Positions 5,499 to 46,947 of a DNA stretch of 64,000 nt are shown here, piece after piece. Location: positions 143,192-207,191 of the IMG/VR virus record IMGVR_UViG_3300050821_002957, one strand, 5' to 3'. A program made the translations under genes and the position numbers. This DNA is from a virus. The stretch's first letter is position 1; every line of letters starts with the position of its first letter. The notes beneath the pieces are model-generated. The model searched no databases and was not told the origin of the DNA. It saw nothing but the letters and a program-made list of their open reading frames with translations.

Positions 5499-6106
5499 TA
5501 CGTCGCTATCATCACCTGATCCGGCTGCACGACCGTCGCCGACAATGCTTCGATGGCAATGCGAGCTTCGTATTCTTGAATGTATTCGAGATGAACTTTT
5601 TCGATTTTCGCCACAACCTTTTTCGGAAGGTCGGCTTTCACAGCAACCTTGACGACTGCCGGGGTTCCCTTTACCGGGCATCCTTCAGTCTCACCACCGC
5701 AGGCGCAGGACTTTGCATGGACACCTTTTTTGATGGCTGTTTTGAGGATACTGGCGTAGACGAGTTTCTTGGCTTTTTCAGGAGGGATGTTTTCGTTTTC
5801 TTTCCACTCGTAAGAGCGACGAACACCGATGTTAAGATTCTTGATGGGATTGTTCTGCTTACGTTTGTCTTTTTTCTTTGGTTGAGGATTTGCTTCCATC
5901 AAAGATCCGGCCAGAATTGTAATCGGCTCCAAGATGCCCTGATATTGTCGGTAGAGATTGGTAATCGTCTCTACTTCCGCCGCATACTCAATCTGCAACG
6001 TGGCAATCTGCGTCTTCAATATTTCGACACGATCCCCTGAACGGCGAAGCAAATCTATTACTGTGGCTTCATCGGTTTTTTCACCGAGGTTTAAATTTTC
6101 AATCAT
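5498..6106 (-). CDS. hypothetical protein
   Basis: 202-aa ORF with a lysine-rich middle segment. Confidence 0.55.
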   Translation of the reverse strand: MIENLNLGEKTDEATVIDLLRRSGDRVEILKTQIATLQIEYAAEVETITNLYRQYQGILEPITILAGSLMEANPQPKKKDKRKQNNPIKNLNIGVRRSYEWKENENIPPEKAKKLVYASILKTAIKKGVHAKSCACGGETEGCPVKGTPAVVKVAVKADLPKKVVAKIEKVHLEYIQEYEARIAIEALSATVVQPDQVMIAT

Positions 6107-6187
6107 AGTTGTTCCTTCCGGTCTCGATAGACCTTTCCTGAACCATCATAAAACATCTACATCTACTTTGTCAAGCAGATACATCAA

Positions 6188-6451
6188 GTGCTAGATAGCA
6201 ATATGGTTTGTCTCTTTGATCGTTTCCTCACCGAAGAACTCTCGGTGCCATCAGATGCTATTCTCAGCTTTTACGCCCATCCTCGAATTCAAGTCCAAGT
6301 ATACGATGATTCGCCCTGTTATACGGCACTTTTCTACGTGGACGGCAAACCGACACTCAAAGAAAATCTAATCGACGGACTCTCAAAATTTTTTGAACGA
6401 ACAATCATCGACGCAAATTTTCACGCCTTCCTAATTGAAATTGTCTCATAA
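6188..6451 (+). CDS. hypothetical protein
   Basis: 87-aa ORF. Confidence 0.45.
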   Translation: MLDSNMVCLFDRFLTEELSVPSDAILSFYAHPRIQVQVYDDSPCYTALFYVDGKPTLKENLIDGLSKFFERTIIDANFHAFLIEIVS

Positions 6452-7227: not shown

Positions 7228-7692
7228 ATGAGCGAAAGACCGCTACCAGGAAAACCACAACCAAGAGAACGCAGACCGTTGGCGGAACCGGAATGGGATG
7301 GAAATGCTTGCCTCTTTATTACGGCACATGCAGCCCGTCGTATGGAGGAACGTTTTGGTCTCACCCGGCTTCGGACTACACCGTTTGAAATTCAGACGAT
7401 GTATTGTGAAGCAACCGACATTGACCGGCCTGTCTGGGCACTTCGGATCAGCAATGGAAAATCAAATGGATGGATTCTTGGCAGATGGGAACTCGCCGAA
7501 CCCGTTCTGGCCCGAGGAATCTACAAATATTGGTTTGTCGGCACCACAGTTATCAACGACAAACAGTTCAATTATTCCCGGCTAGAGGTTCGTAAGACCA
7601 TCAGAATCAACGTCAAACGAATCATCAACGAATCTTCACGAATACGTCCAAAAAGTGAAGATACATCTATTGACATTTACGACCAACTCTGA
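7228..7692 (+). CDS. hypothetical protein
   Basis: 154-aa ORF. Confidence 0.55.
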   Translation: MSERPLPGKPQPRERRPLAEPEWDGNACLFITAHAARRMEERFGLTRLRTTPFEIQTMYCEATDIDRPVWALRISNGKSNGWILGRWELAEPVLARGIYKYWFVGTTVINDKQFNYSRLEVRKTIRINVKRIINESSRIRPKSEDTSIDIYDQL

Positions 7693-7698
7693 TACGAT
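7660..7698 (+). promoter_or_regulatory. promoter family copy 1: GATACATCTATTGACA, 17-bp spacer, TACGAT, 6 nt, ATG 7705
   Basis: Exact TTGACA, 17-bp spacer and -10-like hexamer; the start codon sits where the transcript would begin (leaderless). Confidence 0.55.
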
Positions 7699-7704
7699 TG
7701 GTTC

Positions 7705-7986
7705 ATGGTTCCAAAGACGATAAAGCAAATTCAGGACGATGTGTCCCGGATTCATTTTATGACACGAGATTTTGCGATCCATGTTCGTAAGTTGAAACTG
7801 GCTCACAAGAATCGTGTCGTCGAGCAACAGCGTATGTCGGATGAAGGCGTGCCCGGAAGTCAGGAGCCTTTCAATGTGCCAGCGTTTGCTTTGGAATATC
7901 AAGCTGACGCACTTATTGATCTCGCCAACCAAATCAAGGAATCGGCCAAGTTCTTACGAAATACGCCGGTAGATGAATGGAAATGA
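7705..7986 (+). CDS. hypothetical protein
   Basis: 93-aa ORF directly downstream of a promoter copy. Confidence 0.55.
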   Translation: MVPKTIKQIQDDVSRIHFMTRDFAIHVRKLKLAHKNRVVEQQRMSDEGVPGSQEPFNVPAFALEYQADALIDLANQIKESAKFLRNTPVDEWK

Positions 7987-8198
7987 ACCAATACGAAAAG
8001 ATGGTCAAGGCAAAAGAGTTACTCATCGAGGCTCGCAAACTTTGGTTCGAGGCAGCTTGTGGAAATTTTAATCCTCCAATCGAAAAGCACAATGCGATGG
8101 CCGGTCACTCATTACAGGATGAAGGTGTGCGTCCAATGATCGACACGCTGATCCTCATGGCGGAAAACGAACTCGTCCATTACGTAAAGGAATCCTAA
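7977..8198 (+). CDS. hypothetical protein
   Basis: 73-aa ORF overlapping the upstream gene. Confidence 0.45.
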   Translation: MEMNQYEKMVKAKELLIEARKLWFEAACGNFNPPIEKHNAMAGHSLQDEGVRPMIDTLILMAENELVHYVKES

Positions 8199-8377
8199 TG
8201 CCACAGTCGCAAGCCAGCACCGCCGATCAACTTGAAAAACTGAAGGTTCTCGTCGCCGATCAGGAATATGATCTCGACAATCTTGGTCCACATGATCTTC
8301 GGGCCATTGTGAAGATTGCGAATTTCAACGGTTTGTACGATGCCGCTGACTTCGTAAGAAATCAGGCCGGAAAATAA
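8198..8377 (+). CDS. hypothetical small protein (59 aa)
   Basis: TAATG overlap with the upstream stop; clean ORF MPQSQASTADQLEKLKVLVADQEYDLDNLGPHDLRAIVKIANFNGLYDAADFVRNQAGK. Confidence 0.4.
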   Translation: MPQSQASTADQLEKLKVLVADQEYDLDNLGPHDLRAIVKIANFNGLYDAADFVRNQAGK

Positions 8378-8559
8378 AAAATCACATTGGAGTGGAAATG
8401 AATCCTGAACACTACCCGACTTGGGCCGCACTATCTTATGAATTTTGGGCGTTTGCCTCGATTCATCCTTTTGAGGCGACCGTTTTCGTATTGGCTACAT
8501 TGACTGTTATTGGTTGGTGGGTCCGAAAAGACTAACGAAGAATGACAGATTGAAAACCT

Positions 8560-8763
8560 GTGGTACGATGTGTCATGACTTTTGATCCGCACGATTTCAA
8601 ACCCACGACGCTTGGACTTTGCGAGATTTGCGCCGAGCACAAGTACCATCCTTCGCACCATGAATTTATTCTACATCCCACGTATAGAGGACCCGGCTGC
8701 GCTCATTGTGGAAAGCCGGAAAAAGGTCACAAACCAGCCTCAAAAAAAGTTGAAAAAAATTAG
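8560..8763 (+). CDS. small Cys/His zinc-finger-like protein
   Basis: CEICAEHKYHPSHHEF...CAHCGKPEKGH. Confidence 0.45.
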   Translation: MVRCVMTFDPHDFKPTTLGLCEICAEHKYHPSHHEFILHPTYRGPGCAHCGKPEKGHKPASKKVEKN

Positions 8764-8801
8764 ATACATCTATTGACATCAACCCAGTTGTTTGGTATTC
8801 T
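8763..8801 (+). promoter_or_regulatory. promoter family copy 2: GATACATCTATTGACA, 17 bp, TATTCT, 6 nt, ATG 8808
   Basis: Same box, same spacing and same 6-nt gap to the ATG. Confidence 0.55.
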
Positions 8802-8807
8802 TGATTC

Positions 8808-9176
8808 ATGAGCACAACGACCAAGACGACCAAAAAGACTGCGGTAAAGAAGACGGTTTCCAGGGCGAAAACGACCTTGGTGATGAACCGGGACAAAAAG
8901 GCCAAGCCGGTAACAACAGCCAAGAAGAATGCACTGACGGCTCGCTCGCCTTTTGCTCCGAAAGTTTCCAAGCCTCGTGTGTTTGTTCCGGTGAATCAGC
9001 TTGGTGTTGTCGATCAGATCACCAATGCGTTTGCCCGTCACAACATGTTCGCTACGGTTTTGGGGGTCCTCATCGGCAGTTTCGTTCCGGTTGCGGTTTG
9101 CCGGCGCATTATGGTGTTCAGGTTCATCCGGCTCTATGGGTTCTGGTGTTGGGCGGTCTGGTCTACTCAGCGCTGA
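8808..9176 (+). CDS. lysine-rich (histone H1-like N-terminus) protein with TM segment; apparently continues in the -1 frame to 9400
   Basis: MSTTTKTTKKTAVKK... then a TM helix. The 8792..9400 frame encodes a further multi-TM, lysine-rich C-terminus with no in-frame ATG. Confidence 0.5.
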   Translation: MSTTTKTTKKTAVKKTVSRAKTTLVMNRDKKAKPVTTAKKNALTARSPFAPKVSKPRVFVPVNQLGVVDQITNAFARHNMFATVLGVLIGSFVPVAVCRRIMVFRFIRLYGFWCWAVWSTQR

Positions 9177-9400
9177 CAGTTTTCAAGTGGGGTGTTGCTG
9201 CGTTTTCGTCGCCGGTCAAGAGCGTCGGCTTTGTGCTGCTGCTGGAAGGTACGTTGACGTTCAGTAATGAACACGCTTTGGCTTTGGGTGCTTTAGCAAT
9301 TCTGGCATTCATCAACGCAGTAGCGACGGCTTGCAACTTGATCGCTCAGAAGAAAGAAGCGAAGCAGGAAGCAATTGCAGCAAAGAAAGCAGGAAAGTAA

Positions 9401-9568
9401 ATGTTATCACCTATAACTAAAGCTGATCTAGAGAAATTTTTGCAGGAGAATAGTCATCTTCCTGGTGACACTCCCATTTACATCATTTACGGTCTCGGCC
9501 CTGCCAAGATGGACCAGATGTATGTTGATGATGAGATGTGTGAAGAAGTGGCAATCTTTTTCCAGTAA
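9401..9568 (+). CDS. hypothetical small protein (55 aa)
   Basis: ATG immediately after the upstream stop. Confidence 0.35.
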   Translation: MLSPITKADLEKFLQENSHLPGDTPIYIIYGLGPAKMDQMYVDDEMCEEVAIFFQ

Positions 9569-9580
9569 AGGAATGGGAAC

Positions 9581-9766
9581 ATGATCGAACTTTCAGTAAT
9601 ATTGTCGTGCGGCCACGTTGCTGTCGTAGAGTCGCCGGTTCCCTTTGATATTTTGGATCGGATGGGATTTGCATCGGCATCATGTCCTCAGGGATGTGGT
9701 TATCGAATGATCATCAAGGAAAATAAAGACACATCTTCTATTGACAAACCGAAGAAGGTGGGATAG
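9581..9766 (+). CDS. hypothetical small protein
   Basis: 61-aa ORF with a Cys pair. Confidence 0.4.
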   Translation: MIELSVILSCGHVAVVESPVPFDILDRMGFASASCPQGCGYRMIIKENKDTSSIDKPKKVG

Positions 9767-9769
9767 GCT
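9728..9769 (+). promoter_or_regulatory. promoter family copy 3 (variant box GACACATCTTCTATTGACA, 17 bp, TAGGCT, 7 nt, ATG 9777)
   Basis: TTGACA, exact 17-bp spacer and a -10-like hexamer directly before the ATG. Confidence 0.45.
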
Positions 9770-9776
9770 AAGAACA

Positions 9777-10118
9777 ATGACGATTCAACAGAATGGTGGT
9801 TTCAAATCGAGTGGAGAAGGGCCGAAGGAAGTGCGCCCACCGGAGCCAGTCAGCTTTATTGTAAAGTTTACATACTGGCCATCGATGACCAAGGATTGCA
9901 GTCCTTCGGATAGTAAGATCATCGTTCAGGCAATGAGCTACGACGAGGCTGTAGAGAACTCCAAGAAAGAACTCAAGGCTAAGAAAATGTGGCGGCAGGT
10001 TATCGCTATTCACTCGGTGAGTTTTGTTTGTGATGGTTGGGGTCGAGCGATCAAGCCGACAAGTTCCAATCGAGGGAAACTTCAATTCGAGGAAAGTGTC
10101 GCTGAATATCTACTATGA
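9777..10118 (+). CDS. hypothetical protein
   Basis: ATG just downstream of promoter copy 3; 113 aa. Confidence 0.55.
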   Translation: MTIQQNGGFKSSGEGPKEVRPPEPVSFIVKFTYWPSMTKDCSPSDSKIIVQAMSYDEAVENSKKELKAKKMWRQVIAIHSVSFVCDGWGRAIKPTSSNRGKLQFEESVAEYLL

Positions 10119-11752: not shown

Positions 11753-11783
11753 TTGGGAAGTTGACACGCCTGCAATTTGCGGT

Positions 11784-12311
11784 ATGATTGTAGGCGTGTC
11801 AATCCCTAAATTATCGAACAAGCAAATTACTCTCAATGCAGTCCTCCCTCTGAAAGGCGTAACATTCACCGACCGAGAAGCAATGGATGATGCATTTTTA
11901 CCGTACTTCGCACCACTCCAAAATTTCTTCCACGGCGAAGGACATCGTGATCTTGTTGATCGTCTGATTCGTTGTGGATGGATCACTGTAGATCGAGTCA
12001 AAGGCACATTTACCGTGGTGCTTGAAGAAGGCATCCAAGTTGCAATGCAGGCGACCGACCCAACACAAGGCCCGACTCCTCGCACAGTAGAAATGTCATT
12101 TCTGGAAGAACATCAGCCGGTGACGCAACTCACTTTCGTTCAGATGCAAATGATCGATGAAGTCGGGAAGCATACATCATATGATCCAGGCCCCAATGAA
12201 CCGAAGCGAATCGCCATTCTTGAAACTCTTATCGATGCAGGTTTGGTTCAAATTTCATATTCATTGACTCCATTGGGCATTGCAGAATTCAAAAAACTCG
12301 GATCTATTTAA
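11784..12311 (+). CDS. hypothetical protein
   Basis: First ATG of the 11715 GTG-initiated frame; 175 aa. Confidence 0.45.
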   Translation: MIVGVSIPKLSNKQITLNAVLPLKGVTFTDREAMDDAFLPYFAPLQNFFHGEGHRDLVDRLIRCGWITVDRVKGTFTVVLEEGIQVAMQATDPTQGPTPRTVEMSFLEEHQPVTQLTFVQMQMIDEVGKHTSYDPGPNEPKRIAILETLIDAGLVQISYSLTPLGIAEFKKLGSI

Positions 12312-13613: not shown

Positions 13614-14132
13614 ATGATAGAAGATAGAACGGACTCTCAACACGCAGTTTACGCCGGGACGTTCGATCCATTTACAAAAGGTCATGAGCATGTACTGATG
13701 CAGGCGAAGCCACTCTTCGACCGGATCACACTTGCAATCGGTGTGAACCCAGGTAAGAAGACGATGTTCACGTTGGAAGATCGCCTCGCTATGTTGCGTG
13801 ATGTAGCAAATCAGCACAACAGAATGAAGGTCTCCTCTTTCGAGAATTTGTACCTCATGGATTATGCCGAGAGTATTGGTGCCCGGTATGTAATCAGAGG
13901 TCTCCGTAATGCAGCCGATTTTGAGTACGAGCTTTCGATTGCTCAAATCAACAAAGGAATTAATCCTCGTATTCGTACAGTATTTTTCATGGCAGATCGT
14001 GAATTCGCCGACATCAGTTCCAGTGTCGTCAAAGGTCTCATCGGCCCGAAGGATTGGCAGAAAGTTATTAAAGAATATTTGCCGATGGAAATGTGGGAAC
14101 GTTTTTTCAAAATACTTGACAAGAACTCATAG
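13614..14132 (+). CDS. coaD: phosphopantetheine adenylyltransferase
   Basis: YAGTFDPFTKGHEHV (HxGH nucleotidyltransferase motif), RGLRNAADFEYE, ISSSVVKGL; 172 aa. Confidence 0.85.
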   Translation: MIEDRTDSQHAVYAGTFDPFTKGHEHVLMQAKPLFDRITLAIGVNPGKKTMFTLEDRLAMLRDVANQHNRMKVSSFENLYLMDYAESIGARYVIRGLRNAADFEYELSIAQINKGINPRIRTVFFMADREFADISSSVVKGLIGPKDWQKVIKEYLPMEMWERFFKILDKNS

Positions 14133-14144
14133 AGAGGTTAACAT
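14116..14144 (+). promoter_or_regulatory. promoter TTGACA, 17 bp, TAACAT, 8 nt before ATG 14153
   Basis: Exact -35 and 17-bp spacer. Confidence 0.45.
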
Positions 14145-14152
14145 CAAAACTA

Positions 14153-16540
14153 ATGACGAACGGATCAACCAATCATAATAGCGCTCTCGAAACCGTCTTA
14201 ACCGGCGAAGCGAGTAAGCTGCTTCATACACACAGTGCCACTGTCTTGGCGAAATACGGAAGCCTTAGGAAGGAATTGGAAGCTCTTCAGAATGCTGTCA
14301 ATAAGCATGAAGAGAAAATTTCAAAGTTAGTCAGAACCGCAAAGAAGCAACTCGATCCGTTTTACGATAGGTTTGATCCGACCAGCAAAGCAGGCGTCGA
14401 AGACCTCTCGATTTTCCGGTTCATTGATAACGTCGGCGGCAGTCTGATCAACTTCATGTCGAACAGCAGTGCAAGATTGCAGATGATCCAGATGTATAGT
14501 GATCTTCTGCTTCCGGCGCTTCAACACAAGACCAGTGAACTGTCAGACATCGTTCTGGCAGAAGACAGCGGATCTGAATTGATTCGTACCTGCTCTGCGG
14601 AATTTCAACAGACTGTACTTGGTTTCGAGAAGTTGTTAGCTTCTATCTACGTCGGCACTCGTGGTGAATACAAGAAGCTCCGTCGTAAGTTCTTGGGCGG
14701 AAGTGCGGCCCCTGATAACGATAACGTCGAAGATCAGTTGCTCATGTCCTTCTTTGGAACCAAACCGCCGCAACGTGAGACGACTGGTCCTGCAACTGCT
14801 CTGATCGATGAAAACTGTGTTCTGACTCAGTTGCTCATTGACATCGGTGAGAATCTTCCTCGTTTTTACGAAAAGGTCACCCCGATTTTGAAGCGTGGAA
14901 AGTTGTCCGGTAAGACCAAGACGACCAAAATTCTTGACCAGGGTGAAATTGAAGACTGGGCCGGTACGTTGACTTCAATTTCCAATCCGATCTACTGGAA
15001 GTACGTCAATAATCCTGGCGAACTGACCACGACCATTCTCAGTGTTGTAAAGGCATTCCAGACTGAATACACACAGATTGCAACTGCTCTGCACGCTCTG
15101 GTCATGAAGGCCAATCTCGAACACGAAGAGAAGCGGCGCATCATCGACGATCCGGCTGCGTTGACCAAGCAGTACAATCGTATCAACTTTCTGTCGATCA
15201 GACCGTCTGCTGAAGACATTGCTCCTCGCACCAAAATGGATGCAGATTTGGCAGCAGCACGTACCAAATTGTTTGTCCAGTTGAAAGAGACCATTGATCT
15301 TCTATCTCAGATGGATCACCACGAACAGACCACGGAAGATTTCGCTATCGACCGTGTAAGAAAGGCCATCGAACTGAAAGAAGCGATGGATGACATTCAG
15401 CGTACAGAAGCTCAGAAGCATCTCAAGCGCAATATTGCTGACGACAATGAATTCTACGTCGGCAAGTCGGGCAATCTTGGTTCGATTAGTTCCGAGCGTG
15501 AACCTGCTCCTCGCATCACGTATGACGATGTGATTGGTGCCAGCTTCATCAAGGCCAAGCAGCACGTCGATGAAGTAATCAAGGTTGCTTCTCATCCTCA
15601 CTTGATGCGTCTTTCGGCTCCTCGTGGAAATGTGAAGAGCAATTTGCTGTTCATTGGGCCTTATGGTTGCGGTAAGACGGAAATAGCTCGTGCTATCGGT
15701 GGTGACAAACGTATCATCGGCTTCAACGTTGCTGTTGCAGACATGTTGACTGCTTACATGCACGAATCGGTCAAGAACGTCAAGCGTGTCTATGATTGTG
15801 CCAAGGATCTCCGCAAGGGTTCTCGGTACACCAAGCCGGTTGCAATTTTGATGGACGAGTTTGATCGTCTCTTCAATTACGGCGAAGGTGTTCATGCTGC
15901 CTATGATGGCGGTCGCATGACTGGTGTTCTTCAGGAAATGATGGACGGCGTTGTGGACTACGAAGGTGTGTTCTTGGTCGGCATGACGAACGTTCCGAAG
16001 CAAATTCCTGAAGCTGTTCTGCGTCGGTTCAAGTACGTCGATGTGGTCGGTCAGTTGACGCAGGAAGAGCGGGTCAAGTTGTTCAAGATGTTCCTGACTC
16101 GTGGTCTCCCGGTCGATGAATCCGTCACCGAAGCCGATTATCTGAAGTGGGCCGATATGATGAATCACGCTCCTGGTGATGTCATTGGAAAGGTCACCGA
16201 CGAAATTCACTTCAAGTTCATGCATGAGCTTGTAACCCGAGACGAAAAAATCATCGCCACTCTAGAAAAGTCTTTGTCCAAGAAACTTCGTGATCGTGAA
16301 GCCAAGAAAACCGACTACACATTCCTGAAGGCAGCACTGGCGAAGCACAAGACGATTGGCGCAGCCGACATCACGACCGCACTGGAAGCAGTCATCGTCC
16401 AGCCACAAGTAAAGATGCAAATCAACAAGGCGAAGCAGACCTACAAGGATGCAGAAGACATCATGAAGGGTTTGAGTGCAATCGGCGAGTCGGACCACGG
16501 TTTCCACGGTCTGAAAAAGTCCCAAATCTGGGGCCAGTAA
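14153..16540 (+). CDS. large AAA+ ATPase-domain protein
   Basis: 795 aa. C-terminal AAA module with Walker A GPYGCGKT, Walker B ILMDEFD and SRH-like EAVLRRF. Confidence 0.8.
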   Translation: MTNGSTNHNSALETVLTGEASKLLHTHSATVLAKYGSLRKELEALQNAVNKHEEKISKLVRTAKKQLDPFYDRFDPTSKAGVEDLSIFRFIDNVGGSLINFMSNSSARLQMIQMYSDLLLPALQHKTSELSDIVLAEDSGSELIRTCSAEFQQTVLGFEKLLASIYVGTRGEYKKLRRKFLGGSAAPDNDNVEDQLLMSFFGTKPPQRETTGPATALIDENCVLTQLLIDIGENLPRFYEKVTPILKRGKLSGKTKTTKILDQGEIEDWAGTLTSISNPIYWKYVNNPGELTTTILSVVKAFQTEYTQIATALHALVMKANLEHEEKRRIIDDPAALTKQYNRINFLSIRPSAEDIAPRTKMDADLAAARTKLFVQLKETIDLLSQMDHHEQTTEDFAIDRVRKAIELKEAMDDIQRTEAQKHLKRNIADDNEFYVGKSGNLGSISSEREPAPRITYDDVIGASFIKAKQHVDEVIKVASHPHLMRLSAPRGNVKSNLLFIGPYGCGKTEIARAIGGDKRIIGFNVAVADMLTAYMHESVKNVKRVYDCAKDLRKGSRYTKPVAILMDEFDRLFNYGEGVHAAYDGGRMTGVLQEMMDGVVDYEGVFLVGMTNVPKQIPEAVLRRFKYVDVVGQLTQEERVKLFKMFLTRGLPVDESVTEADYLKWADMMNHAPGDVIGKVTDEIHFKFMHELVTRDEKIIATLEKSLSKKLRDREAKKTDYTFLKAALAKHKTIGAADITTALEAVIVQPQVKMQINKAKQTYKDAEDIMKGLSAIGESDHGFHGLKKSQIWGQ

Positions 16541-16547: not shown

Positions 16548-16593
16548 TTTACAATCGTTCATGGATCTGTTAGTATTTGGTCCATGAACGATT
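16548..16593 (+). promoter_or_regulatory. promoter TTTACA, 17 bp, TAGTAT, 7 nt, ATG 16584, embedded in a perfect 12-bp inverted repeat (aatcgttcatgg / ccatgaacgatt)
   Basis: The IR arms bracket the -10 element and include the start codon. Confidence 0.5.
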
Positions 16594-16793
16594 CCCTAAA
16601 AGGCACAATGAATTTGAATGAACTGATCATGGGTGTTCGGGCGGAACCGGCATTTAATGGTAAGGTTCGTCTTAAGTATCTTGCAATTTCAGGAGGCTGT
16701 GGCCCGGAACTGAGCATGGACTTCGATTTAGCAAGAAAAACCATCATGGCATTGGAAACGGCAATGGCGGGTGGAACCTACGAAAGCGAATAA
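16584..16793 (+). CDS. hypothetical small protein (paralog of the next gene at its N-terminus)
   Basis: MNDSLKGTMNL resembles MSDSFLNGSMPG of the 16844 gene. Confidence 0.5.
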   Translation: MNDSLKGTMNLNELIMGVRAEPAFNGKVRLKYLAISGGCGPELSMDFDLARKTIMALETAMAGGTYESE

Positions 16794-16794
16794 A

Positions 16795-16853
16795 GGTACA
16801 TCTACCTGTTGACAATCGCTCATGAGCCTGCTAGAATGGGTTCATGAGCGATT
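16795..16853 (+). promoter_or_regulatory. promoter family copy 4 (GGTACATCTACCTGTTGACA, 17 bp, TAGAAT, 6 nt, ATG 16844) with 12-bp inverted repeat (aatcgctcatga / tcatgagcgatt)
   Basis: Same architecture as the 16548 element. Confidence 0.5.
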
Positions 16854-17185
16854 CCTTTTTGAACGGTTCAATGCCTGGAGATTACGTCGAGCTAGGCGAT
16901 GTCTGCCGAAAACGCCTGGGAATGCAGTGTCAATACGGCTCCCGGTACGCTAACGATCTCTGCAAAGACCTTCGTTACATCGGAACAACCGCCGACTACC
17001 ACTCGATGCAGATTCACCGAGATGACGTTGAAGAGTATGTCGGTCGAGTGGCCATCTATCGCCATAAAATTGGTGCCATTGGGGAAGCCGAATCATTTGC
17101 GTTGTGTCCTGCCGCTCATAGATTTGATTCGCATATTTTTGATGTGGTCGCCGAGTTCATTCGCAAAAAGGACGTAAAATGCTGA
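16844..17185 (+). CDS. hypothetical protein
   Basis: 113-aa ORF. Confidence 0.5.
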   Translation: MSDSFLNGSMPGDYVELGDVCRKRLGMQCQYGSRYANDLCKDLRYIGTTADYHSMQIHRDDVEEYVGRVAIYRHKIGAIGEAESFALCPAAHRFDSHIFDVVAEFIRKKDVKC

Positions 17186-25520: not shown

Positions 25521-25548
25521 TTGACGTTTTGAGATTGTGCGGTATGTT
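25521..25548 (+). promoter_or_regulatory. promoter TTGACG, 16 bp, TATGTT, 6 nt, ATG 25555
   Basis: Same leaderless geometry as the box-promoter family. Confidence 0.4.
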
Positions 25549-25554
25549 AGGATT

Positions 25555-25953
25555 ATGCCGCCAACACGAAGACTTGAAGCACGAGATACACCACTACTCG
25601 GTATTGCCAAACTTTCTGAAGGTGTTCCTCGCATTGTTGAAATTTTAGACAATCTGTTCAAATATGCTTCGATGATCGATCCCTACTCTATTTTGGGTGG
25701 GGCGGCGTATCTTGTCTATTTGGATGAATTAGGAATCTATTGTAGTGACATCGGAGCTTTGTTTAGGCGTTGCAACCAAAATGTTCTGGAGATGGCAACC
25801 GTATTACGTGCCTATCAATTGGGCATTCTGACTGACACCGAAATTCGTTCAGTTATTGATTCTAAACATGGATTTAATACTCAGGCTCTTTTTACCGCCG
25901 TCCAAGCGGAATTGCCGGGTTTTGGACAAATGTCCATACAGAAAGATGAATAA
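25555..25953 (+). CDS. hypothetical protein
   Basis: First ATG of a GTG-initiated frame; sits 6 nt after the -10 element. Confidence 0.5.
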   Translation: MPPTRRLEARDTPLLGIAKLSEGVPRIVEILDNLFKYASMIDPYSILGGAAYLVYLDELGIYCSDIGALFRRCNQNVLEMATVLRAYQLGILTDTEIRSVIDSKHGFNTQALFTAVQAELPGFGQMSIQKDE

Positions 25954-29696: not shown

Positions 29697-29766
29697 TACT
29701 TTAGTCCAATTGATGTATCTCTTGGGGTATGCTAGAGTGGTTTCCAGTGTGGAGACACTCTTTTCA

Positions 29767-32506: not shown

Positions 32507-33039
32507 GCCTGTTTCTCAGAGCATTGGTGCGTAGCGAAGGCAAGAGTTGCGAAGGCAAACTCAAGTATCCTCGTGAGGACTCTGCTGTCCGTAATGCTCT
32601 CGCAATGACCGAAAAGAAAAAGAAGCTCCACGCTGCCGAGGGCCGGGAGTCAACCGAATTTTTTGAGACGTACAAATGCAACTTTTGTGACGGCTGGCAT
32701 ATCGGTCACCAAACCAACTTCGATTGGATTCCACAGTCACACCGGGCGCAGCATTTGATGATGAATAAGTACGAGTGCTTCAGCAAAATCGATGAAGTCG
32801 TGTGTGGCAAAATTTGGATCAGCAACACAGTTTTCTCGAATCGAATTCTGGAGCATTTTCCGAACGTCAAAGATGAAATGGAGCGTCTTGTTATTTGTCC
32901 GAAATGCAAAGGAACACTGTACAAGAATCATGGCCGTCTTTGGGTGAATCTGGAGACGATCAACCCAGAATCCACTGAAACCATCGAAGCACTTTGGGCC
33001 AAACAAGATGTATCTGTTGACAATCTCGCCGAATCGTGA
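32503..33039 (+). CDS. hypothetical protein with Cys pairs
   Basis: 178-aa ORF. Confidence 0.55.
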   Translation: MSLFLRALVRSEGKSCEGKLKYPREDSAVRNALAMTEKKKKLHAAEGRESTEFFETYKCNFCDGWHIGHQTNFDWIPQSHRAQHLMMNKYECFSKIDEVVCGKIWISNTVFSNRILEHFPNVKDEMERLVICPKCKGTLYKNHGRLWVNLETINPESTETIEALWAKQDVSVDNLAES

Positions 33040-33045
33040 TAGAGT

Positions 33046-33261
33046 TTGTTCATGACGTACCGTATTCGTTTTCGCAACATAGGTTCCTTGCACGAATCGG
33101 AACCAAAGACTTTCAATGAGGCATGGGTTATCGCCATCAATCTCTCCCATTGGAATCAGCGTGTCGATATTATTGACGCTGAGACCGGCGAAGTACTCAA
33201 ATCCTCAGAACCGTACTCCGAGAATGGGGCACGGCAACTTGAAGCGATGCTGGCGCAGTAA
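33046..33261 (+). CDS. hypothetical small protein
   Basis: 71-aa ORF. Confidence 0.45.
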   Translation: MFMTYRIRFRNIGSLHESEPKTFNEAWVIAINLSHWNQRVDIIDAETGEVLKSSEPYSENGARQLEAMLAQ

Positions 33262-33395
33262 AGGCCAATCCTGGTGATTCGTGGAGCCTCTGCTGTTCGA
33301 GGCTCTCCCCACCGGGGTCTTATAAATAAAAACGTGGCAACCCCACATAGGAGGTCATCAATGTCAAGATTTATAGCTTAGGAGGCTTTAAATAC

Positions 33396-36695: not shown

Positions 36696-36913
36696 TGTCA
36701 CAAGGCGTTTTTAGTTCTTGTGGTTTTTGTGGACTCCATCTCCCTTTGACTTTTGATGAACAAAAAGATGCCGACCGAGCATGGAAATTCAGCGGAATGA
36801 ACATCCATGAATGGCATCGCCGCAAGTTTCCAAATTACCATCCCCGGTTGACATTCAAGGTTCCGCTTGATATCATTGAGAAATGTCAAAGCCAGACAAA
36901 AAAGATTCAGTGA
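36695..36913 (+). CDS. hypothetical small protein
   Basis: 72-aa ORF. Confidence 0.4.
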   Translation: MSQGVFSSCGFCGLHLPLTFDEQKDADRAWKFSGMNIHEWHRRKFPNYHPRLTFKVPLDIIEKCQSQTKKIQ

Positions 36914-38541: not shown

Positions 38542-38628
38542 TCCGTCGATGTGCTATCGTGGTGTTGTGAAGTTTCAAACAATGAGCTAGGACAACCTTG
38601 TTCATATCTAGGAAAACAAAAAACAAAC

Positions 38629-39117: not shown

Positions 39118-39176
39118 TTTTAAGAGCGTCTAGAATCGTCTAGACAATTTCAACGAGGGTGTGTTAGTATGAGAAC

Positions 39177-39869
39177 ATGAAAACTCTGCTAACCGCCCTC
39201 GTTTTATTTGGTGTTGCTGCTTCAGCGCAGACATCGCAAGAAAAGCCGTGCCCAAATGGTGGCTACGGTCCAGATTGCATCGTTCCCGGACTATTGCAAC
39301 TTCCTTCCGAAACCACGACCACTCCTAAGTCCGATAAGATTTCTGACGGATCAACATCAAATGATCTGTTCTTCATGGTTGGCTCCGATTTCGACCGTCC
39401 TGGTTTGCTGCCTCGTGCAAATTACAATGTCGGCCTGGGTCACACTTTCTCCTTCTTGACCAATTCTCCTGTTCATTATTTCGGCGATGAAGTTACCGTT
39501 GCGTACACTTACGAAAACGGTGGACCGAAAGGTTTCTGGCATGGTCCTACAAGCACCAGCACTGAAAGCCTTGGTCTGATGAAAAACATCAGCATTCCGC
39601 ATACGAAGAAAGTTACTGTCTACACTTGGCCGCAACTCGGTCTTACATCCATTTTTACCGGAAAGCCAGCGACAATACTGGATACAAAAGTGGTTGTTGA
39701 TGGTGTTCCTCTTCCTCCCACACAAAATCGTCTGTATGCCGGTTTTGCTATTGGGGCGATCATCCACCTTCCACACAACACGTCCATTTGGATTCAAGAG
39801 AGCTACAACAAAGTCGTGACGGTGCCGTGGTACACAACGACTTCGATTGGCTATACGATCAGCTTCTAA
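39177..39869 (+). CDS. secreted beta-barrel-like outer-membrane protein
   Basis: Signal peptide MKTLLTALVLFGVAASAQT. C-terminus SIGYTISF ends in Phe. Confidence 0.5.
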   Translation: MKTLLTALVLFGVAASAQTSQEKPCPNGGYGPDCIVPGLLQLPSETTTTPKSDKISDGSTSNDLFFMVGSDFDRPGLLPRANYNVGLGHTFSFLTNSPVHYFGDEVTVAYTYENGGPKGFWHGPTSTSTESLGLMKNISIPHTKKVTVYTWPQLGLTSIFTGKPATILDTKVVVDGVPLPPTQNRLYAGFAIGAIIHLPHNTSIWIQESYNKVVTVPWYTTTSIGYTISF

Positions 39870-41008: not shown

Positions 41009-41011
41009 AAT

Positions 41012-45259: not shown

Positions 45260-45475
45260 TTAGAGAGTATGCTTGCATTTACGACAGCGCAGACCGACTT
45301 CATCATAGCTGCCATCGCCATTTTCTCGGAACAAACGATGAACTGTTGCACGATGACAAAATGGGCATAGAAATTGAAAGAGGGCTTCTTCAGACATAAT
45401 CAAGTCCTGAAGCAAGTCTTCGAGATCGTTCAAAAGGATTTCAGGTATTCCGTACATGGTATTATTTAGATGCAT
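45260..45475 (-). CDS. small zinc-ribbon protein
   Basis: CPFCH...CRKCKH. Confidence 0.45.
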   Translation of the reverse strand: MHLNNTMYGIPEILLNDLEDLLQDLIMSEEALFQFLCPFCHRATVHRLFRENGDGSYDEVGLRCRKCKHTL

Positions 45476-45508
45476 CTACTTGACAAGATCCGACGAATGT
45501 GATATCTT
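45469..45508 (+). promoter_or_regulatory. promoter family copy 5 (GATGCATCTACTTGACA, 17 bp, TATCTT, 6 nt, ATG 45515)
   Basis: Same geometry as the other copies. Confidence 0.5.
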
Positions 45509-45514
45509 CCAATC

Positions 45515-45868
45515 ATGGCTTACATAGCAATGAGCGCTTGTGGACAGTGCCATCAAATTTTTTCGTACAATCCACATCTTGTCCCGTCTTTGAACGATGT
45601 GCCGTTTTGCCGTAATTGTGTCGAACGTGCAAATCCCAAACGCATCGCCAACGGTCTGGAGCCGATCAACATCCTCCCTGGCGCATACGAATCGGTCGCC
45701 GAAACTCCCGCTGAAGAGATGGAAACGGATTATCAATGCGATCAAGAGTACTACGATCCAGAAGAGCCGATGACGCCATACGACAGCGACGATGAATTTG
45801 AAGATGAATTCAATGACGATATCGACCGGGACGATCTTGACGATTATCCACCGGCATTTCGCCCCTAA
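45515..45868 (+). CDS. Cys-containing protein with acidic tail
   Basis: 117-aa ORF. Confidence 0.5.
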   Translation: MAYIAMSACGQCHQIFSYNPHLVPSLNDVPFCRNCVERANPKRIANGLEPINILPGAYESVAETPAEEMETDYQCDQEYYDPEEPMTPYDSDDEFEDEFNDDIDRDDLDDYPPAFRP

Positions 45869-45874
45869 AAAGTT

Positions 45875-45913
45875 GATACATCTATTGACTTCTGAACTGA
45901 TCTACGGTAGACT
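45875..45913 (+). promoter_or_regulatory. promoter family copy 6 (GATACATCTATTGACT, 17 bp, TAGACT; 28-nt leader to ATG 45942)
   Basis: Box conserved; the only copy with a leader. Confidence 0.45.
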
Positions 45914-45941
45914 TGAAGAGTAGACAAAAGGACACCACCTT

Positions 45942-46196
45942 ATGAACGACAATCTCCCAATTCTTTACATCCCCGTCAACGGCCACAAAGTCGCAGACAA
46001 ACCCGGCTGGACTAATAGCGTCGGCATTCCTTCCCAGTCGAGCGATGCGCTTTACGTCATCGCCCAGCGCAAGACAAGCCGTGGTTGGGGCTGCTCTTGC
46101 CGTGGATGGATTCGTCATCGTCACTGCAAGCATCTTGAAGCCCTTCGCCTGCCTGCTAACGAACGTCCTTACGAAGTTCAACTGAAAGGCAACTGA
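45942..46196 (+). CDS. SWIM-type zinc-finger protein
   Basis: WGCSCRGWIRHRHCKHLEAL (CxC...CxH). Confidence 0.5.
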   Translation: MNDNLPILYIPVNGHKVADKPGWTNSVGIPSQSSDALYVIAQRKTSRGWGCSCRGWIRHRHCKHLEALRLPANERPYEVQLKGN

Positions 46197-46527: not shown

Positions 46528-46605
46528 GGCTGATACTCGGGCAGAGCGAGGGTTTCTTGGATAAAACACTCTATCAGCGGTGCCAGGAAACCCTCAAAAA
46601 ATTTA

Positions 46606-46644
46606 GATACATCTATTGACATCTGGTCGGGAATGCGGTATCCT
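46606..46644 (+). promoter_or_regulatory. promoter family copy 7 (GATACATCTATTGACA, 17 bp, TATCCT, 6 nt, ATG 46651)
   Basis: Implies the real start is 46651 rather than the upstream ATG at 46633, which lies inside the spacer. Confidence 0.5.
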
Positions 46645-46650
46645 TTGAAT

Positions 46651-46947
46651 ATGAAGACACGGAAAACAGTCAACGTTGCGGAAATGCTTTTCACAGCGAA
46701 CTATTTTATGAAGCATTCCAAACCGGAGCAGGTTGGTGAGCGCCGGGGAACCGCCAGTTTGCTGGAATCGATGCTGCACGCCAGTGGCAACTACAGTGGT
46801 TTTGGCTACATCGAACTGACGAATGCCGGAACCAATCAGCAGAAGTTAGGTGACGAGAGCCGTGTGTTCTACTACGTTTCTCAGAACCTTCGGAATGACT
46901 ACAAAGGTGTCGAAGATCGCAAAGCTCAGGAAGGATTCGTTTACTAA
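46651..46947 (+). CDS. hypothetical protein
   Basis: ORF downstream of promoter copy 7. Confidence 0.5.

What the first reader, a model, noticed from the sequence alone, without database searches (positions are those of the whole stretch)
7660..9769. Family of at least 7 promoters with a conserved upstream box (gATACATCTAyTTGACA), exact 17-bp spacer and the start codon 6 nt after the -10 (leaderless mRNAs)
The seven copies sit at 7660, 8763, 9728 (variant), 16795, 45469, 45875 and 46606. Each has TTGACA or TTGACT, exactly 17 bp, a TAnnnT hexamer, and then, in six of the seven, the ATG 6 to 7 nt later. Transcription would therefore start at or within 1 to 2 nt of the start codon, giving leaderless mRNAs. 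The copy at 45875 has a 28-nt leader.

The 10-nt ATACATCTAT extension 5' of the -35 is far more conserved than a UP element needs to be. It looks like a binding site for a phage or host regulator or a sigma appropriation factor. Promoters at 14116 and 25521 share the geometry without the box.

Copy 7 also implies the annotated start of the 46633 ORF is wrong and the real start is 46651.
Basis: seen in the sequence. Interest (0 to 1): 0.65.

Follow-up and report, generated by a model that had tools for sequence, protein, structure and literature searches.

The report
Leaderless phage promoters with palindromic operator
A giant T4-like phage from environmental metagenomes starts many of its early-type genes from near-perfect bacterial promoters placed so that the messenger RNA begins at the start codon, and about half of these promoters carry a conserved 12-base palindrome just upstream that looks like the docking site of an unknown regulator.

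Summary
All seven listed copies exist. I found two more box copies (33005, inverted; 6176-6187, minus strand) and six box-less promoters with the same geometry. TTGACN, 16-18 nt, TAnnnT, 5-8 nt, ATG plus ORF occurs 10 times against 0.1 expected.

The window is part of a 404-kb T4-like phage contig. The "box" is misdescribed. It is a 12-bp dyad, TAGAT-RY-ATCTA, at -47 to -36 (centre -41.5). It occurs in both orientations, sometimes 1-5 bp from the -35, sometimes between divergent promoters. In relatives it also sits inside the -35/-10 spacer. It is conserved while flanks and spacers diverge, and is absent as a repeat from bacterial genomes. That pattern fits a dimeric protein's operator better than an UP element or a hairpin.

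Leaderless initiation is supported by sequence only:
- fixed 6-nt spacing between the -10 and the ATG
- a pyrimidine at -1 in 59 of 60 promoters
- no Shine-Dalgarno sequence
- ATGs conserved in orthologues

The closest known elements are the PeSL early-promoter cassettes of T4-type phages. No regulator was identified, and its sign (repressor favoured) is inferred. This is a new variant of a known kind.

The parts
7648..7707 (+). Box promoter. A-tract; dyad AAGATACATCTA 7658-7669; -35 TTGACA 7670-7675; 17 bp; TGn plus -10 TACGAT 7693-7698; 6 nt; ATG 7705 (93-aa ORF).
8751..8810 (+). Box promoter. A-tract; perfect half-sites TAGATACATCTA 8761-8772; -35 8773-8778; 17 bp; -10 TATTCT 8796-8801; 6 nt; ATG 8808.
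9716..9779 (+). Box promoter, variant. Dyad AAGACACATCTT 9726-9737; 3-nt gap; -35 9741-9746; 17 bp; -10 TAGGCT 9764-9769; 7 nt; ATG 9777.
16783..16853 (+). Box promoter, variant. Dyad AAGGTACATCTA 16793-16804; 4-nt gap; -35 16809-16814; 17 bp; -10 TAGAAT 16832-16837; 6 nt; ATG 16844. A 12-bp inverted repeat (16814-16825 / 16842-16853) brackets the -10 and covers the ATG.
32995..33054 (+). New box promoter with the dyad in the opposite orientation. AAGATGTATCTG 33005-33016; -35 33017-33022; 17 bp; -10 TAGAGT 33040-33045; 6 nt; ATG 33052 (69 aa, conserved in 6 related loci).
45457..45517 (+). Box promoter with a perfect 12-bp palindrome TAGATGCATCTA 45467-45478. 1-nt gap; -35 45480-45485; 17 bp; -10 TATCTT 45503-45508; 6 nt; ATG 45515. 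The dyad lies between this gene and the divergent Zn-ribbon gene 45260-45457 (-).
45863..45944 (+). Box promoter with a leader. TTGATACATCTA 45873-45884; -35 TTGACT 45885-45890; 17 bp; -10 TAGACT 45908-45913; 28 nt containing AAGGA; ATG 45942.
46594..46653 (+). Box promoter. TAGATACATCTA 46604-46615; -35 46616-46621; 17 bp; -10 TATCCT 46639-46644; 6 nt; ATG 46651. The in-frame ATG at 46633 lies inside the spacer and is not conserved in the orthologue.
6104..6197 (-). New minus-strand box promoter with a leader. Dyad TTGATGTATCTG 6187-6176; 1-nt gap; -35 TTGACA 6174-6169; 18-bp spacer holding a second, degenerate box-like TAGATGTAGATG; -10 TATGAT 6150-6145; 38-nt leader with GGAAGG; ATG 6106 (202 aa).
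11761..11802 (+). Box-less leaderless-type promoter. TTGACA; 16 bp; TATGAT; 7 nt; GTG 11796. An 11-bp inverted repeat (11761-11771 / 11792-11802) pairs the -35 with the start codon.
14116..14155 (+). Box-less promoter. TTGACA; 17 bp; TAACAT; 8 nt; ATG 14153 (795-aa AAA ATPase).
16548..16593 (+). Box-less leaderless-type promoter. TTTACA; 17 bp; TAGTAT; 7 nt; ATG 16584. A 13-bp inverted repeat spans the spacer and the start codon. It is a paralogue of the 16809 promoter.
25521..25557 (+). Box-less leaderless-type promoter. TTGACG; 16 bp; TATGTT; 6 nt; ATG 25555.
36848..36885 (+). Box-less leaderless-type promoter. TTGACA; 17 bp; TATCAT; 6 nt; ATG 36883 (326-aa RlaP-type nucleotidyltransferase).
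39141..39179 (+). Weaker box-less leaderless-type promoter. TAGACA; 18 bp; TAGTAT; 6 nt; ATG 39177.

Best explanation
These are promoters read by the host's primary-sigma RNA polymerase in the small-gene (early-type) region of a roughly 404-kb T4-like phage.

Core promoter. The core is a consensus -35 (TTGACA), a 17-18 bp spacer, a TGn extended -10 and a TAnnnT -10. It is placed so that the preferred start position, 7 nt after the -10, is the A of the ATG. The first gene of each transcription unit is therefore made from a leaderless mRNA. Downstream genes in the unit use ordinary Shine-Dalgarno sites.

The dyad. Nine of the window's promoters carry an upstream A-tract and a 12-bp dyad-symmetric site, TAGAT-RY-ATCTA, at -47 to -36 (centre -41.5). 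Seven of these nine are among the 13 leaderless starts; the other two have leaders. I infer that this dyad is the operator of a dimeric DNA-binding regulator. The regulator is more likely phage-encoded than host-encoded and was not identified. It would co-ordinately control this promoter subset.

Direction of control. The core elements are already near consensus, and in relatives the same dyad also sits inside the -35/-10 spacer. Negative control is therefore the more likely sign: shut-off of an immediate-early class, or holding RNA polymerase at a strong promoter. Activation from the class II position remains possible.

Shown versus inferred. Shown: motif anatomy, enrichment, symmetry, positional variants and conservation across related phages. 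Inferred: promoter activity, the transcription start site, leaderless translation, protein binding and the direction of control.
For: Promoter and leaderless geometry:
- 10 full matches against 0.115 expected, all co-oriented with genes.
- 13 leaderless-type starts in the window.
- Across 60 unique promoters from the window and relatives, the -1 base is C in 40 and T in 19, and TG sits at -15/-14 in 51. The control is 21 pyrimidines in 43 SD-led starts.
- Internal genes show AGGA or GGAG before their ATG.
- Orthologues keep the ATG and align from Met1 while upstream DNA diverges.
- A gene caller without a leaderless model truncated 7705 to 7759 and 16844 to 16871.

Dyad as an operator:
- All six position pairs are symmetric in 25 gap-free copies.
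- Both orientations occur: centre AC 21, GT 8, GC 4. Examples are 33005 and 6176-6187 in the window.
- 45467 is a perfect palindrome.
- The offset from the -35 varies from 0 to 5 bp.
- One dyad is shared by two divergent -35 hexamers in L032 and L014.
- The dyad lies inside the spacer in L040, L046, L051 and L060.
- 27 sites with up to 1 mismatch occur in 177 kb, against about 1.4 expected by my calculation. 22 of them abut a -35.
- The dyad cannot form a stable hairpin: -1.5 kcal/mol, z +0.3.

Conservation:
- The dyad plus -35 is identical over 20-25 nt between the window and L102. Coding DNA is 72-74% identical and the flanks are unalignable.
- The same holds for L032, L064 and L061.
- The dyad is present in relatives fetched through a protein rather than through the motif.
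- 22 of 117 metagenome pattern hits have the left half-site, against 0.7 expected by my calculation.

Not a host-wide motif: the 18-mer gives 17 single hits in 596 Gb of bacterial genomes, which by my calculation is the chance number. None has a -10 or an ATG.

Core strength: box promoters have cores at least as good as box-less ones. TTGACA 69% against 30%, 17-bp spacer 71% against 30%, TG 87% against 70%.
Against: - No transcription start site, no protein-DNA binding and no expression timing were measured.
- The host is unknown, so the efficiency of leaderless translation there is unknown.
- No DNA-binding domain was found among about 105 ORFs of the window by Pfam or PHROGs. The window is only 64 of about 404 kb.
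- The orientation bias (AC over GT) and the better conservation of the -35-proximal half-site mean the site is not used fully symmetrically. Part of that bias comes from how relatives were fished, using the pattern GATACATCTA.
- A 12-bp site with half-site centres 7 bp apart is short for a helix-turn-helix dimer.
- One leaderless start is GTG (11796), which is a poor leaderless initiator in E. coli (own knowledge).
Confidence: 0.55

Rival explanations
1. The box is a cis-acting promoter-strength element read by RNA polymerase itself, with no dedicated regulator. It would act as an UP-element-like contact for the alpha C-terminal domains, or as an extended -35 contact. This resembles the extra conserved upstream positions that let T4 early promoters outcompete host promoters.
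For: - The box sits where the proximal UP subsite lies, and an A-tract occupies the distal position (-55 to -49).
- T4 early promoters also carry conserved upstream sequence, AAAAAGTTG before TTTAC. The same 9-mer starts the A-tract/box junction here.
- The flexible alpha linker could tolerate 0-5 bp offsets.
Against: - The box is not A/T-only. It has invariant G at -45 and C at -38, and it is dyad-symmetric.
- It works in both orientations and is shared by divergent promoters.
- It occurs inside the -35/-10 spacer, where alpha cannot bind usefully.
- It is absent from the equally well-built box-less promoters of the same phage.
- It is not a repeated motif in bacterial genomes.
Confidence: 0.18
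2. The conserved cassette is mainly a recombination module of the PeSL type. Identical promoter cassettes flank unrelated small genes and serve as patches of homology for modular shuffling. The box is then conserved by copying and gene conversion, or as the target of a recombination protein, rather than by transcriptional regulation.
For: - The setting is the one described for PeSLs (PMC2839356, PMC4122927): a hyperplastic small-gene region of a T4-like genome, near-consensus sigma-70 promoters, an A/T-rich upstream region, and a dyad element whose position relative to the promoter varies.
- Genes downstream of near-identical cassettes are mostly unrelated between relatives.
- GIY-YIG endonuclease genes are common near the cassettes.
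- Three promoters carry strong PeSL-like hairpins.
Against: - Only the dyad, the hexamers and TGn are conserved. Spacers differ in sequence and even in length between copies and between orthologues. This is the signature of position-specific selection, not of recent copying.
- The conserved patch (about 18-25 bp) is shorter than the patches of under 50 bp that the PeSL authors discuss.
- This rival is compatible with, and does not exclude, a regulatory role.
Confidence: 0.12
3. The dyad binds an activator at the class II position (-41.5), like CRP or FNR, or lambda cI at OR2. The box promoters would then form a delayed class switched on by a phage protein rather than an immediate-early class that is shut off.
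For: - The centre is at -41.5 in the gap-free copies.
- The -10 hexamers of box promoters are only about 4.0 of 6 matches, against 4.4 for box-less ones.
- At the Zn-ribbon gene the dyad lies over the -35 position of a TAAATA promoter that has no -35 of its own. This resembles the MotA box at -30.
Against: - The -35 is consensus, the spacer is optimal and an extended -10 is present, so there is little for an activator to add.
- Offsets of 1-5 bp would rotate an activator away from its polymerase contact.
- Spacer-located copies are classical repressor positions.
Confidence: 0.2
4. The mRNAs are not leaderless. Transcription starts elsewhere, or the true start codons lie downstream, and the fixed spacing is a by-product of cassette duplication.
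For: - No start site was mapped.
- Automatic gene calls on the source contig chose downstream starts for two of the genes.
- Read-through from upstream units is likely, because few terminators are seen.
Against: - The spacing is kept in promoters that share no spacer or coding similarity, and in box-less promoters.
- The Y(-1)R(+1) rule holds in 59 of 60.
- Orthologous proteins are conserved from that Met.
- The alternative downstream starts have no Shine-Dalgarno sequence either (read).
Confidence: 0.1

Closest known systems
PeSL (promoter-early stem-loop) cassettes of T4-type phages (Arbiol et al. 2010, PMC2839356; Comeau et al. 2014, PMC4122927)
   Same: - Repeated, near-consensus sigma-70 promoters with an A/T-rich upstream region, spread through the small-gene hyperplastic regions of a T4-like genome.
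- A dyad element accompanies the promoter. It lies just upstream of the promoter in phage PST, where the stem is written AGNA-loop-TCNT, or between or over the hexamers in RB49/phi1.
- Unrelated ORFs follow similar cassettes.
- Three promoters here (11761, 16548, 16809) have stable stem-loops over the -10, as in PeSLs.
   Different: - The 12-bp dyad here cannot form a stable hairpin, so it is not a terminator.
- It is conserved as sequence, not as structure.
- PeSLs end with a Shine-Dalgarno sequence and a start codon, whereas most cassettes here are leaderless.
- The three long hairpins here have their 3' arm over the start codon.
T4 early promoters (host sigma-70, conserved upstream region)
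   Same: - Phage promoters for host polymerase that are conserved well beyond the two hexamers and carry an upstream A-rich tract.
- T4 shows AAAAAGTTG before its -35.
   Different: - T4 has no dyad between the A-tract and the -35.
- Its -35 is TTTAC(A/T).
- Its early genes have leaders with Shine-Dalgarno sites.
Operators centred near -41.5 (CRP/FNR class II sites; lambda cI at OR2; phi29 p4 next to the -35). Comparison from my own knowledge.
   Same: A dyad-symmetric site abuts the -35 and is positioned to touch sigma region 4 or alpha. With phi29 p4, the same contact activates a weak promoter and represses a strong one by blocking promoter escape.
   Different: - The site here is only 12 bp.
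- The -35 here is consensus.
- The offset varies between copies.
- The same site also occurs in spacers.
- No cognate protein is known.
Leaderless mRNAs (lambda cI from PRM; Actinobacteria, Deinococcus-Thermus, Caulobacter; mycobacteriophages). Comparison from my own knowledge; PMC5312081 states that phage transcripts are often leaderless.
   Same: The -10 lies 6-7 nt before a 5'-terminal AUG, with no Shine-Dalgarno sequence.
   Different: Here it is the systematic design for the first gene of many units in a T4-like phage. The remaining genes of each unit use Shine-Dalgarno sites.
T4 MotA/AsiA middle promoters (sigma appropriation)
   Same: A phage-specific upstream element marks a promoter class that uses a sigma-70 type -10.
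   Different: - The MotA box replaces the -35 at -30 and is asymmetric.
- Here the -35 is intact and the element is a dyad at -41.5.
- No MotA or AsiA domain was found in the window.

Membership tests
Sigma-70-type (-35/-10) promoter | -35 hexamer close to TTGACA and -10 hexamer of the form TAnnnT, separated by 17 +/- 1 bp | tested here: met
   All 9 box promoters and 4 of the 6 box-less ones have TTGAC(A/T/G); 16548 has TTTACA and 39141 has TAGACA. Spacers are 16-18 bp. TG is at -15/-14 in 51 of 60.
Sigma-70-type (-35/-10) promoter | Enrichment over chance and co-orientation with genes | tested here: met
   26 core matches against 5.9 expected. 10 with a leaderless ATG against 0.115. All 10 lie on the gene strand.
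Sigma-70-type (-35/-10) promoter | Initiation by host holoenzyme at the predicted position | not testable with these tools
   This needs in vitro transcription or 5'-end mapping.
Leaderless mRNA | Transcription start at, or within a few nt of, the start codon | tested here: inconclusive
   Only inferred. The A of the ATG is 7 nt after the -10 in most copies, and the -1 base is a pyrimidine in 59 of 60. No 5' ends were mapped. One short public contig over gp32 did not end at a promoter.
Leaderless mRNA | AUG start and no Shine-Dalgarno sequence | tested here: met
   12 of 13 starts are ATG and one is GTG. Only 5-8 nt separate the -10 from the codon.
PeSL cassette of T4-type phages | Repeated strong sigma-70-like promoter with an A/T-rich upstream region in a hyperplastic region of a T4-like genome | tested here: met
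   T4-like markers gp32, gp33, gp59 and a baseplate protein are present. The promoter family forms the largest repeat families. The A-tract spans -55 to -49.
PeSL cassette of T4-type phages | Stable stem-loop that can terminate upstream transcription | tested here: not met
   The dyad box folds at -1.5 to -3 kcal/mol, no better than shuffles. Only three promoters (11761, 16548, 16809) have strong hairpins, at -22 to -34 kcal/mol, and one of these is followed by a T-run.
PeSL cassette of T4-type phages | Shine-Dalgarno sequence and start codon at the 3' end of the cassette | tested here: not met
   Seven of nine box promoters have the ATG 6-7 nt after the -10. Only 45875 and 6176 (minus strand) have leaders.
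PeSL cassette of T4-type phages | Association with gene gain, loss or replacement between related phages | tested here: inconclusive
   Downstream genes are mostly unrelated between relatives. The contigs are too fragmentary to map breakpoints.
UP element | A/T-rich sequence from -40 to -60 with no dyad symmetry, functional only upstream of the -35 | tested here: not met
   The box has invariant G and C positions, is dyad-symmetric, is reversible and also lies in spacers. The A-tract further upstream does fit an UP subsite.
Class II activator site (CRP/FNR type) | Dyad site centred at -41.5 | tested here: met
   The box spans -47 to -36 in the 25 gap-free copies. 8 copies are displaced by 1-5 bp.
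Class II activator site (CRP/FNR type) | 16-22 bp site overlapping a weak or absent -35 | tested here: not met
   The site is 12 bp and the -35 is consensus.
T4 middle promoter (MotA/AsiA) | MotA box TGCTTtA at -30 in place of the -35, and MotA and AsiA genes | tested here: not met
   The -35 is intact. No MotA or AsiA Pfam hit was found in the window. The rest of the 404-kb genome was not searched.

The most novel reading that the evidence does not exclude
The 12-bp dyad is the operator of a so far unknown phage-encoded global regulator. This regulator would run the early-to-later switch in a widespread soil and wetland lineage of giant T4-like phages that lack the MotA/AsiA system. The systematic use of leaderless first cistrons would be part of a takeover strategy that keeps phage early translation independent of Shine-Dalgarno-dependent initiation.
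Probability: 0.3. Interest if true: 0.7.

Novelty: new variant of a known kind. Interest (0 to 1): 0.55.

Why it matters
How T4-like phages outside the T4 and coliphage group time their transcription is largely unknown, because most lack MotA and AsiA. This finding gives a concrete, testable handle: a short conserved palindrome at a fixed place in more than 50 promoters from many environmental phages. The palindrome can serve directly as bait to find the regulator.

The promoters also form a compact set with built-in leaderless starts. This has three practical uses:
- It allows gene-start annotation to be corrected in these genomes. Standard callers truncate the leaderless genes.
- It hints at the translation biology of the unknown host.
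- It could supply portable strong promoter parts.

Finally, it extends the PeSL idea of modular promoter cassettes to a very distant, 400-kb branch of the T4 superfamily.

Tried and rejected
1. I replaced it with the abutting form.

2. Looking for cultured relatives gave nothing useful. There was no near DNA match. Two large proteins gave only distant domain hits. gp32 is about 40% identical to cyanomyophage gp32.

3. Two related-loci scans with small promoter-proximal proteins found nothing. The window's own contig is not in IMG/VR.

4. The idea that the box is a host-genome motif or prophage repeat was rejected. There are 17 single hits in 596 Gb, which I calculate to be the chance number, and none has the promoter architecture.

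5. The idea that the box is an RNA or DNA hairpin or terminator was rejected by folding.

6. The search for the regulator was negative or inconclusive:
- Pfam and PHROGs over about 105 ORFs found no DNA-binding domain except a nominal FmdB-like Zn ribbon at 23880-24158.
That entry must be ignored. The correct ORF was rescanned and had no hit.
- A 52-aa ORF (38383-38541) that I guessed might be ribbon-helix-helix is an ORFan with no homologues, so it cannot be a lineage-wide regulator.
- A 171-aa ORF (11796-12311) had no PDB sequence match.
- A 57-aa helix-turn-helix-like ORF lies behind a spacer-box promoter in L040. It has no homologue in the window.
- The Zn-ribbon protein (45260-45457, minus strand) always lies next to a dyad. 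It models as a helix plus a zinc ribbon at pLDDT 83, but has no significant fold match. It remains a weak candidate only.
- Clustering ORFs near cassettes gave homing endonucleases and syntenic core genes, and no obvious regulator.

7. Public short contigs could not be used as proxies for transcript ends. There were no short contigs for the leaderless genes, and the gp32 contig does not end at a promoter.

8. T4 itself does not have the dyad.

9. A literature search for the motif strings returned only unrelated papers.

Full report
**What is there.** Each has TTGACA (TTGACT at 45885), exactly 17 bp, and a TAnnnT hexamer. The ATG follows after 6 nt at 7705, 8808, 16844, 45515 and 46651, after 7 nt at 9777, and after 28 nt at 45942.

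The motif is far above chance:
- ATACATCTATTGACA with up to 3 mismatches gives 9 sites against 2.0 expected, and no shuffle of 100 reaches that number.
- GATACATCTA with up to 1 mismatch gives 16 sites against 2.3.
- The whole architecture (TTGACN, 16-18 nt, TAnnnT, 5-8 nt, ATG opening an ORF of at least 40 codons) occurs 10 times against 0.115 in 200 dinucleotide-preserving shuffles. All 10 are on the strand of the genes.
- The promoter copies are the two largest direct-repeat families in the window.

With the extra y it matches only 45469. In the best copies the box abuts the -35.

**Additional copies.** A box promoter lies at 33005-33052 and another on the minus strand at 6187-6106; the latter has a leader. 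Box-less promoters with the same leaderless geometry precede 11796 (GTG), 14153, 16584, 25555, 36883 and 39177.

The window therefore has 13 leaderless-type starts, 7 with the box and 6 without. It also has 2 box promoters with leaders. The box and the leaderless geometry are separable features.

**Context.** The window has no close DNA relative among 50,697 phage records. It does encode T4-type markers:
- gp32 at 50136-51143, about 40% identical to cyanomyophage gp32
- gp33 and gp59
- a T4 baseplate protein
- RNA ligase, GMP reductase, peptide deformylase, PhoH and dCMP deaminase

It comes from a 404,282-bp metagenomic contig, ENA ERZ27253678 k141_5803278. A 405,631-bp copy exists elsewhere. 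This is a giant T4-like phage. The promoters lie in its + strand region, which is dense with small genes.

**The box is a 12-bp dyad.** Aligning the copies on the -35 shows that the conserved unit is TAGAT-RY-ATCTA at -47 to -36, preceded by an A-tract at about -55 to -49. In 25 gap-free copies from the window and relatives, all six position pairs are complementary. Examples are T/A at -47 and -36, G/C at -45 and -38, and A/T at -44 and -39. Six further observations bear on what the dyad is.

1. Both orientations occur. 45467-45478 is a perfect palindrome, TAGATGCATCTA. At 33005 and 6176-6187 the element is in the opposite orientation, with centre GT instead of AC. Over all copies the centre is AC in 21, GT in 8 and GC in 4.

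2. The distance to the -35 varies. It is 0 bp in 25 copies and 1, 3, 4 or 5 bp in 8 copies.

3. Divergent promoters can share it. In relatives, one dyad can be flanked by two divergent -35 hexamers (L032 13227, L014 2123).

4. [quoted passage not shown] Four relatives have it there:
   - L040: TTGACA-a-TTGATGTATCTA-tgtgg-TAATCT
   - L046
   - L051
   - L060

   Each of these is followed by an ORF, leaderless in three cases.

5. It tracks promoters. Dyads with up to 1 mismatch number 27 in 177 kb of family DNA, against about 1.4 expected. Of these, 22 abut a -35 and 3 lie in spacers.

6. It cannot form a useful hairpin. The fold is -1.5 kcal/mol, no better than shuffles.

A reversible, symmetric, position-flexible element that also appears at a classical repressor position is what a dimeric protein's operator looks like. 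It is not what an UP element or a terminator looks like.

**Conservation.** A scan of IMG/VR for the 16-mer gave mostly chance hits. One set of contigs, however, was 65-72% identical to the window in shared genes and carried the whole architecture. A second scan added more.

Relatives fetched independently of the motif also carry box promoters at orthologous places. These were retrieved through homologues of a small Zn-ribbon protein.

Between the window and L102, coding DNA is 72-74% identical and upstream flanks are unalignable. Yet 20-25 nt spanning the dyad and the -35 are identical at all three orthologous promoters. L032, L064 and L061 show the same footprint, even with a 17 versus 18 bp spacer change.

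There, 22 of 117 hits to the right half-site plus promoter pattern also have the left half-site, against 0.7 expected.

The 18-mer TAGATACATCTATTGACA occurs 17 times in 596 Gb of bacterial and archaeal genomes. That is the chance number. The hits are always single and never have a -10 or an ATG. The element therefore belongs to this phage lineage and is not a general host promoter feature.

**Leaderless initiation.** With a 6-nt gap the A of the ATG is the seventh base after the -10, which is the usual start position (established knowledge).

- In 60 unique promoters of this type from the window and relatives, the base before the ATG is C in 40 and T in 19, and a purine in only one. This matches the known pyrimidine(-1)/purine(+1) preference of bacterial RNA polymerase.
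- For 43 Shine-Dalgarno-led starts in the window, the same position is A 17, T 13, C 8, G 5.
- TG sits at -15/-14 in 51 of 60.
- Downstream genes in the same units have AGGA or GGAG before their ATG, so the host uses ordinary Shine-Dalgarno initiation too.
- Orthologous proteins align from the proposed Met.
- The ATG at 46633 lies inside the spacer and is missing in the L102 orthologue, while 46651 is kept.
- The gene caller used on the source contig cut 7705 back to 7759 and 16844 back to 16871.

All of this is inference from sequence. No 5' end was mapped, and attempts to use short public contigs as proxies failed.

**Mechanism.** The core promoters of box copies are at least as good as those of box-less copies: TTGACA 69% against 30%, 17-bp spacer 71% against 30%, TG 87% against 70%. 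They also have an A-tract. They should therefore be strong without help.

Together with the spacer-located copies, this makes negative control the more likely role of the dyad-binding factor. The possibilities are shut-off of an immediate-early class, or trapping of polymerase at a strong promoter as phi29 p4 does (own knowledge). Activation from -41.5 is not excluded.

At the conserved Zn-ribbon gene (45260-45457, minus strand) the dyad lies over the -35 position of a TAAATA-N5/6-ATG promoter in eight related loci.

I could not identify the regulator:
- No DNA-binding domain was detected in the window.
- A guessed ribbon-helix-helix ORF is an ORFan.
- The Zn-ribbon protein models confidently (pLDDT 83) but matches no DNA-binding fold.

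The window covers only a sixth of the genome, and a host factor is possible.

**Comparison with what is known.** The nearest described elements are the PeSL cassettes of T4-type phages. These are repeated strong sigma-70 promoters with an A/T-rich upstream region and a dyad element, and the position of the dyad relative to the promoter varies. They are concentrated in hyperplastic regions and implicated in modular gene shuffling (PMC2839356, PMC4122927). In phage PST the stems are written AGNA-loop-TCNT and lie just upstream of the promoter, which resembles TAGA-TACA-TCTA.

The present family differs from PeSLs in three ways:
- The dyad is too short and too A/T-rich to be a terminator hairpin.
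- It is conserved as sequence.
- Most cassettes lack the Shine-Dalgarno part and are leaderless.

Three promoters here (11761, 16548, 16809) do carry very stable PeSL-like stem-loops, at -34, -22 and -26 kcal/mol. Their 5' arm lies upstream of the predicted start site and their 3' arm covers the start codon. Only read-through transcripts would fold them.

T4's own early promoters show AAAAAGTTG before TTTAC, no dyad, and normal leaders. Sigma appropriation of the MotA/AsiA kind does not fit, because the -35 is intact.

**Verdict.** The box is a 12-bp palindromic operator-like site, independent of the leaderless design. The whole is a new variant of the T4-type early-promoter cassette, found in a widespread, uncultured lineage of giant phages.

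Noticed in passing
window 40032-40251 (promoter 39990-40018): The phage encodes a permuted (two-piece type) tmRNA (Rfam RF04321, 93.5 bits; ARAGORN tag ANAPAFAFAAAA). It has its own consensus TTGACA-17-TATAAA promoter. A homologous region exists in relative L034. Two tRNA-Thr genes follow at 40933-41085, and a tRNA-Cys lies at 62888-62962 (-).
   Followed up: partly
window 8808-9400: The gene behind the 8763 promoter changes frame. The ATG 8808 frame stops at 9176, while the membrane-protein C-terminus continues in another frame to 9400. The same 122-aa product is on record in two separate contigs. This points to a reproducible frameshift (programmed, or a real pseudogene) rather than a random assembly error.
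   Followed up: partly
window 11761-11802, 16553-16593, 16814-16853 (weaker: 36848-36889): Long inverted repeats bracket the -10. Their 5' arm lies in the -35/spacer and their 3' arm covers the start codon. As RNA they fold at -33.8, -21.8 and -25.8 kcal/mol (z -8.1, -5.7, -5.6). Only read-through transcripts would contain both arms. The one at 16814 is followed by a T-run and scores as a terminator.
   Followed up: partly
window 1-64000; source contig ENA ERZ27253678 k141_5803278: The window is part of a 404,282-bp contig with T4-type core genes, and a 405,631-bp copy exists elsewhere. From my own knowledge, this is far larger than cultured T4-like phages.
   Followed up: partly
window 29653-30441: This phage ORF has a signal peptide and a C-terminal PEP-CTERM sorting motif (PF07589, 22.1 bits), implying a host with an exosortase. 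Several other ORFs (27061-28227, 38551-39117, 39177-39869) also begin with signal-peptide-like sequences ending in AQ (my reading of the translations).
   Followed up: no
window 45260-45457 (-): This small Zn-ribbon protein (C-x2-C ... C-x2-C) is conserved in 8 related loci. It always lies beside a dyad and is preceded by TAAATA-N5/6-ATG with no -35. It is a possible autoregulated gene or a late-type leaderless promoter. The AF2 model has pLDDT 83 and no significant PDB fold match.
   Followed up: yes
window 60194-60211 and 33321-33328: The T4 late-promoter octamer TATAAATA occurs 3 times against 0.5 expected. At 60194 it ends 7 nt before the ATG 60209 of a 351-aa ORF, so a late gene may also be nearly leaderless.
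   Followed up: no
window 51283-51374: A CT-rich tandem tract (TCTTCTTTT repeats) lies in the intergenic region downstream of gp32.
   Followed up: no
L051 987 and L060 1886 (relatives): A yidD-like gene (membrane protein insertion efficiency factor motif, my reading of the translation) is carried by related phages. It is driven by a promoter with the dyad in its spacer and has a GTG start 7 nt after the -10.
   Followed up: no
L034, L042, L051, L064, L110, L182, L211 (relatives): GIY-YIG homing-endonuclease-like ORFs (my reading of the translations) are frequent close to the box promoters in related contigs. This fits a mobile, shuffled gene neighbourhood.
   Followed up: no
L098 3586, L099 3271, L034 2357, L040 8318 (relatives): A second conserved upstream sequence, TACATTTARCCC, abuts TTGACT at some leaderless promoters in relatives. 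These are probably orthologous promoters of one 66-aa gene rather than a second motif family.
   Followed up: no
window 45865-45876 compared with T4 (L103): The 9-mer AAAAAGTTG directly precedes the -35 of several T4 early promoters. It is also the junction of the A-tract and the dyad in many promoters here (AAAAAGTTGATACATCTA).
   Followed up: no
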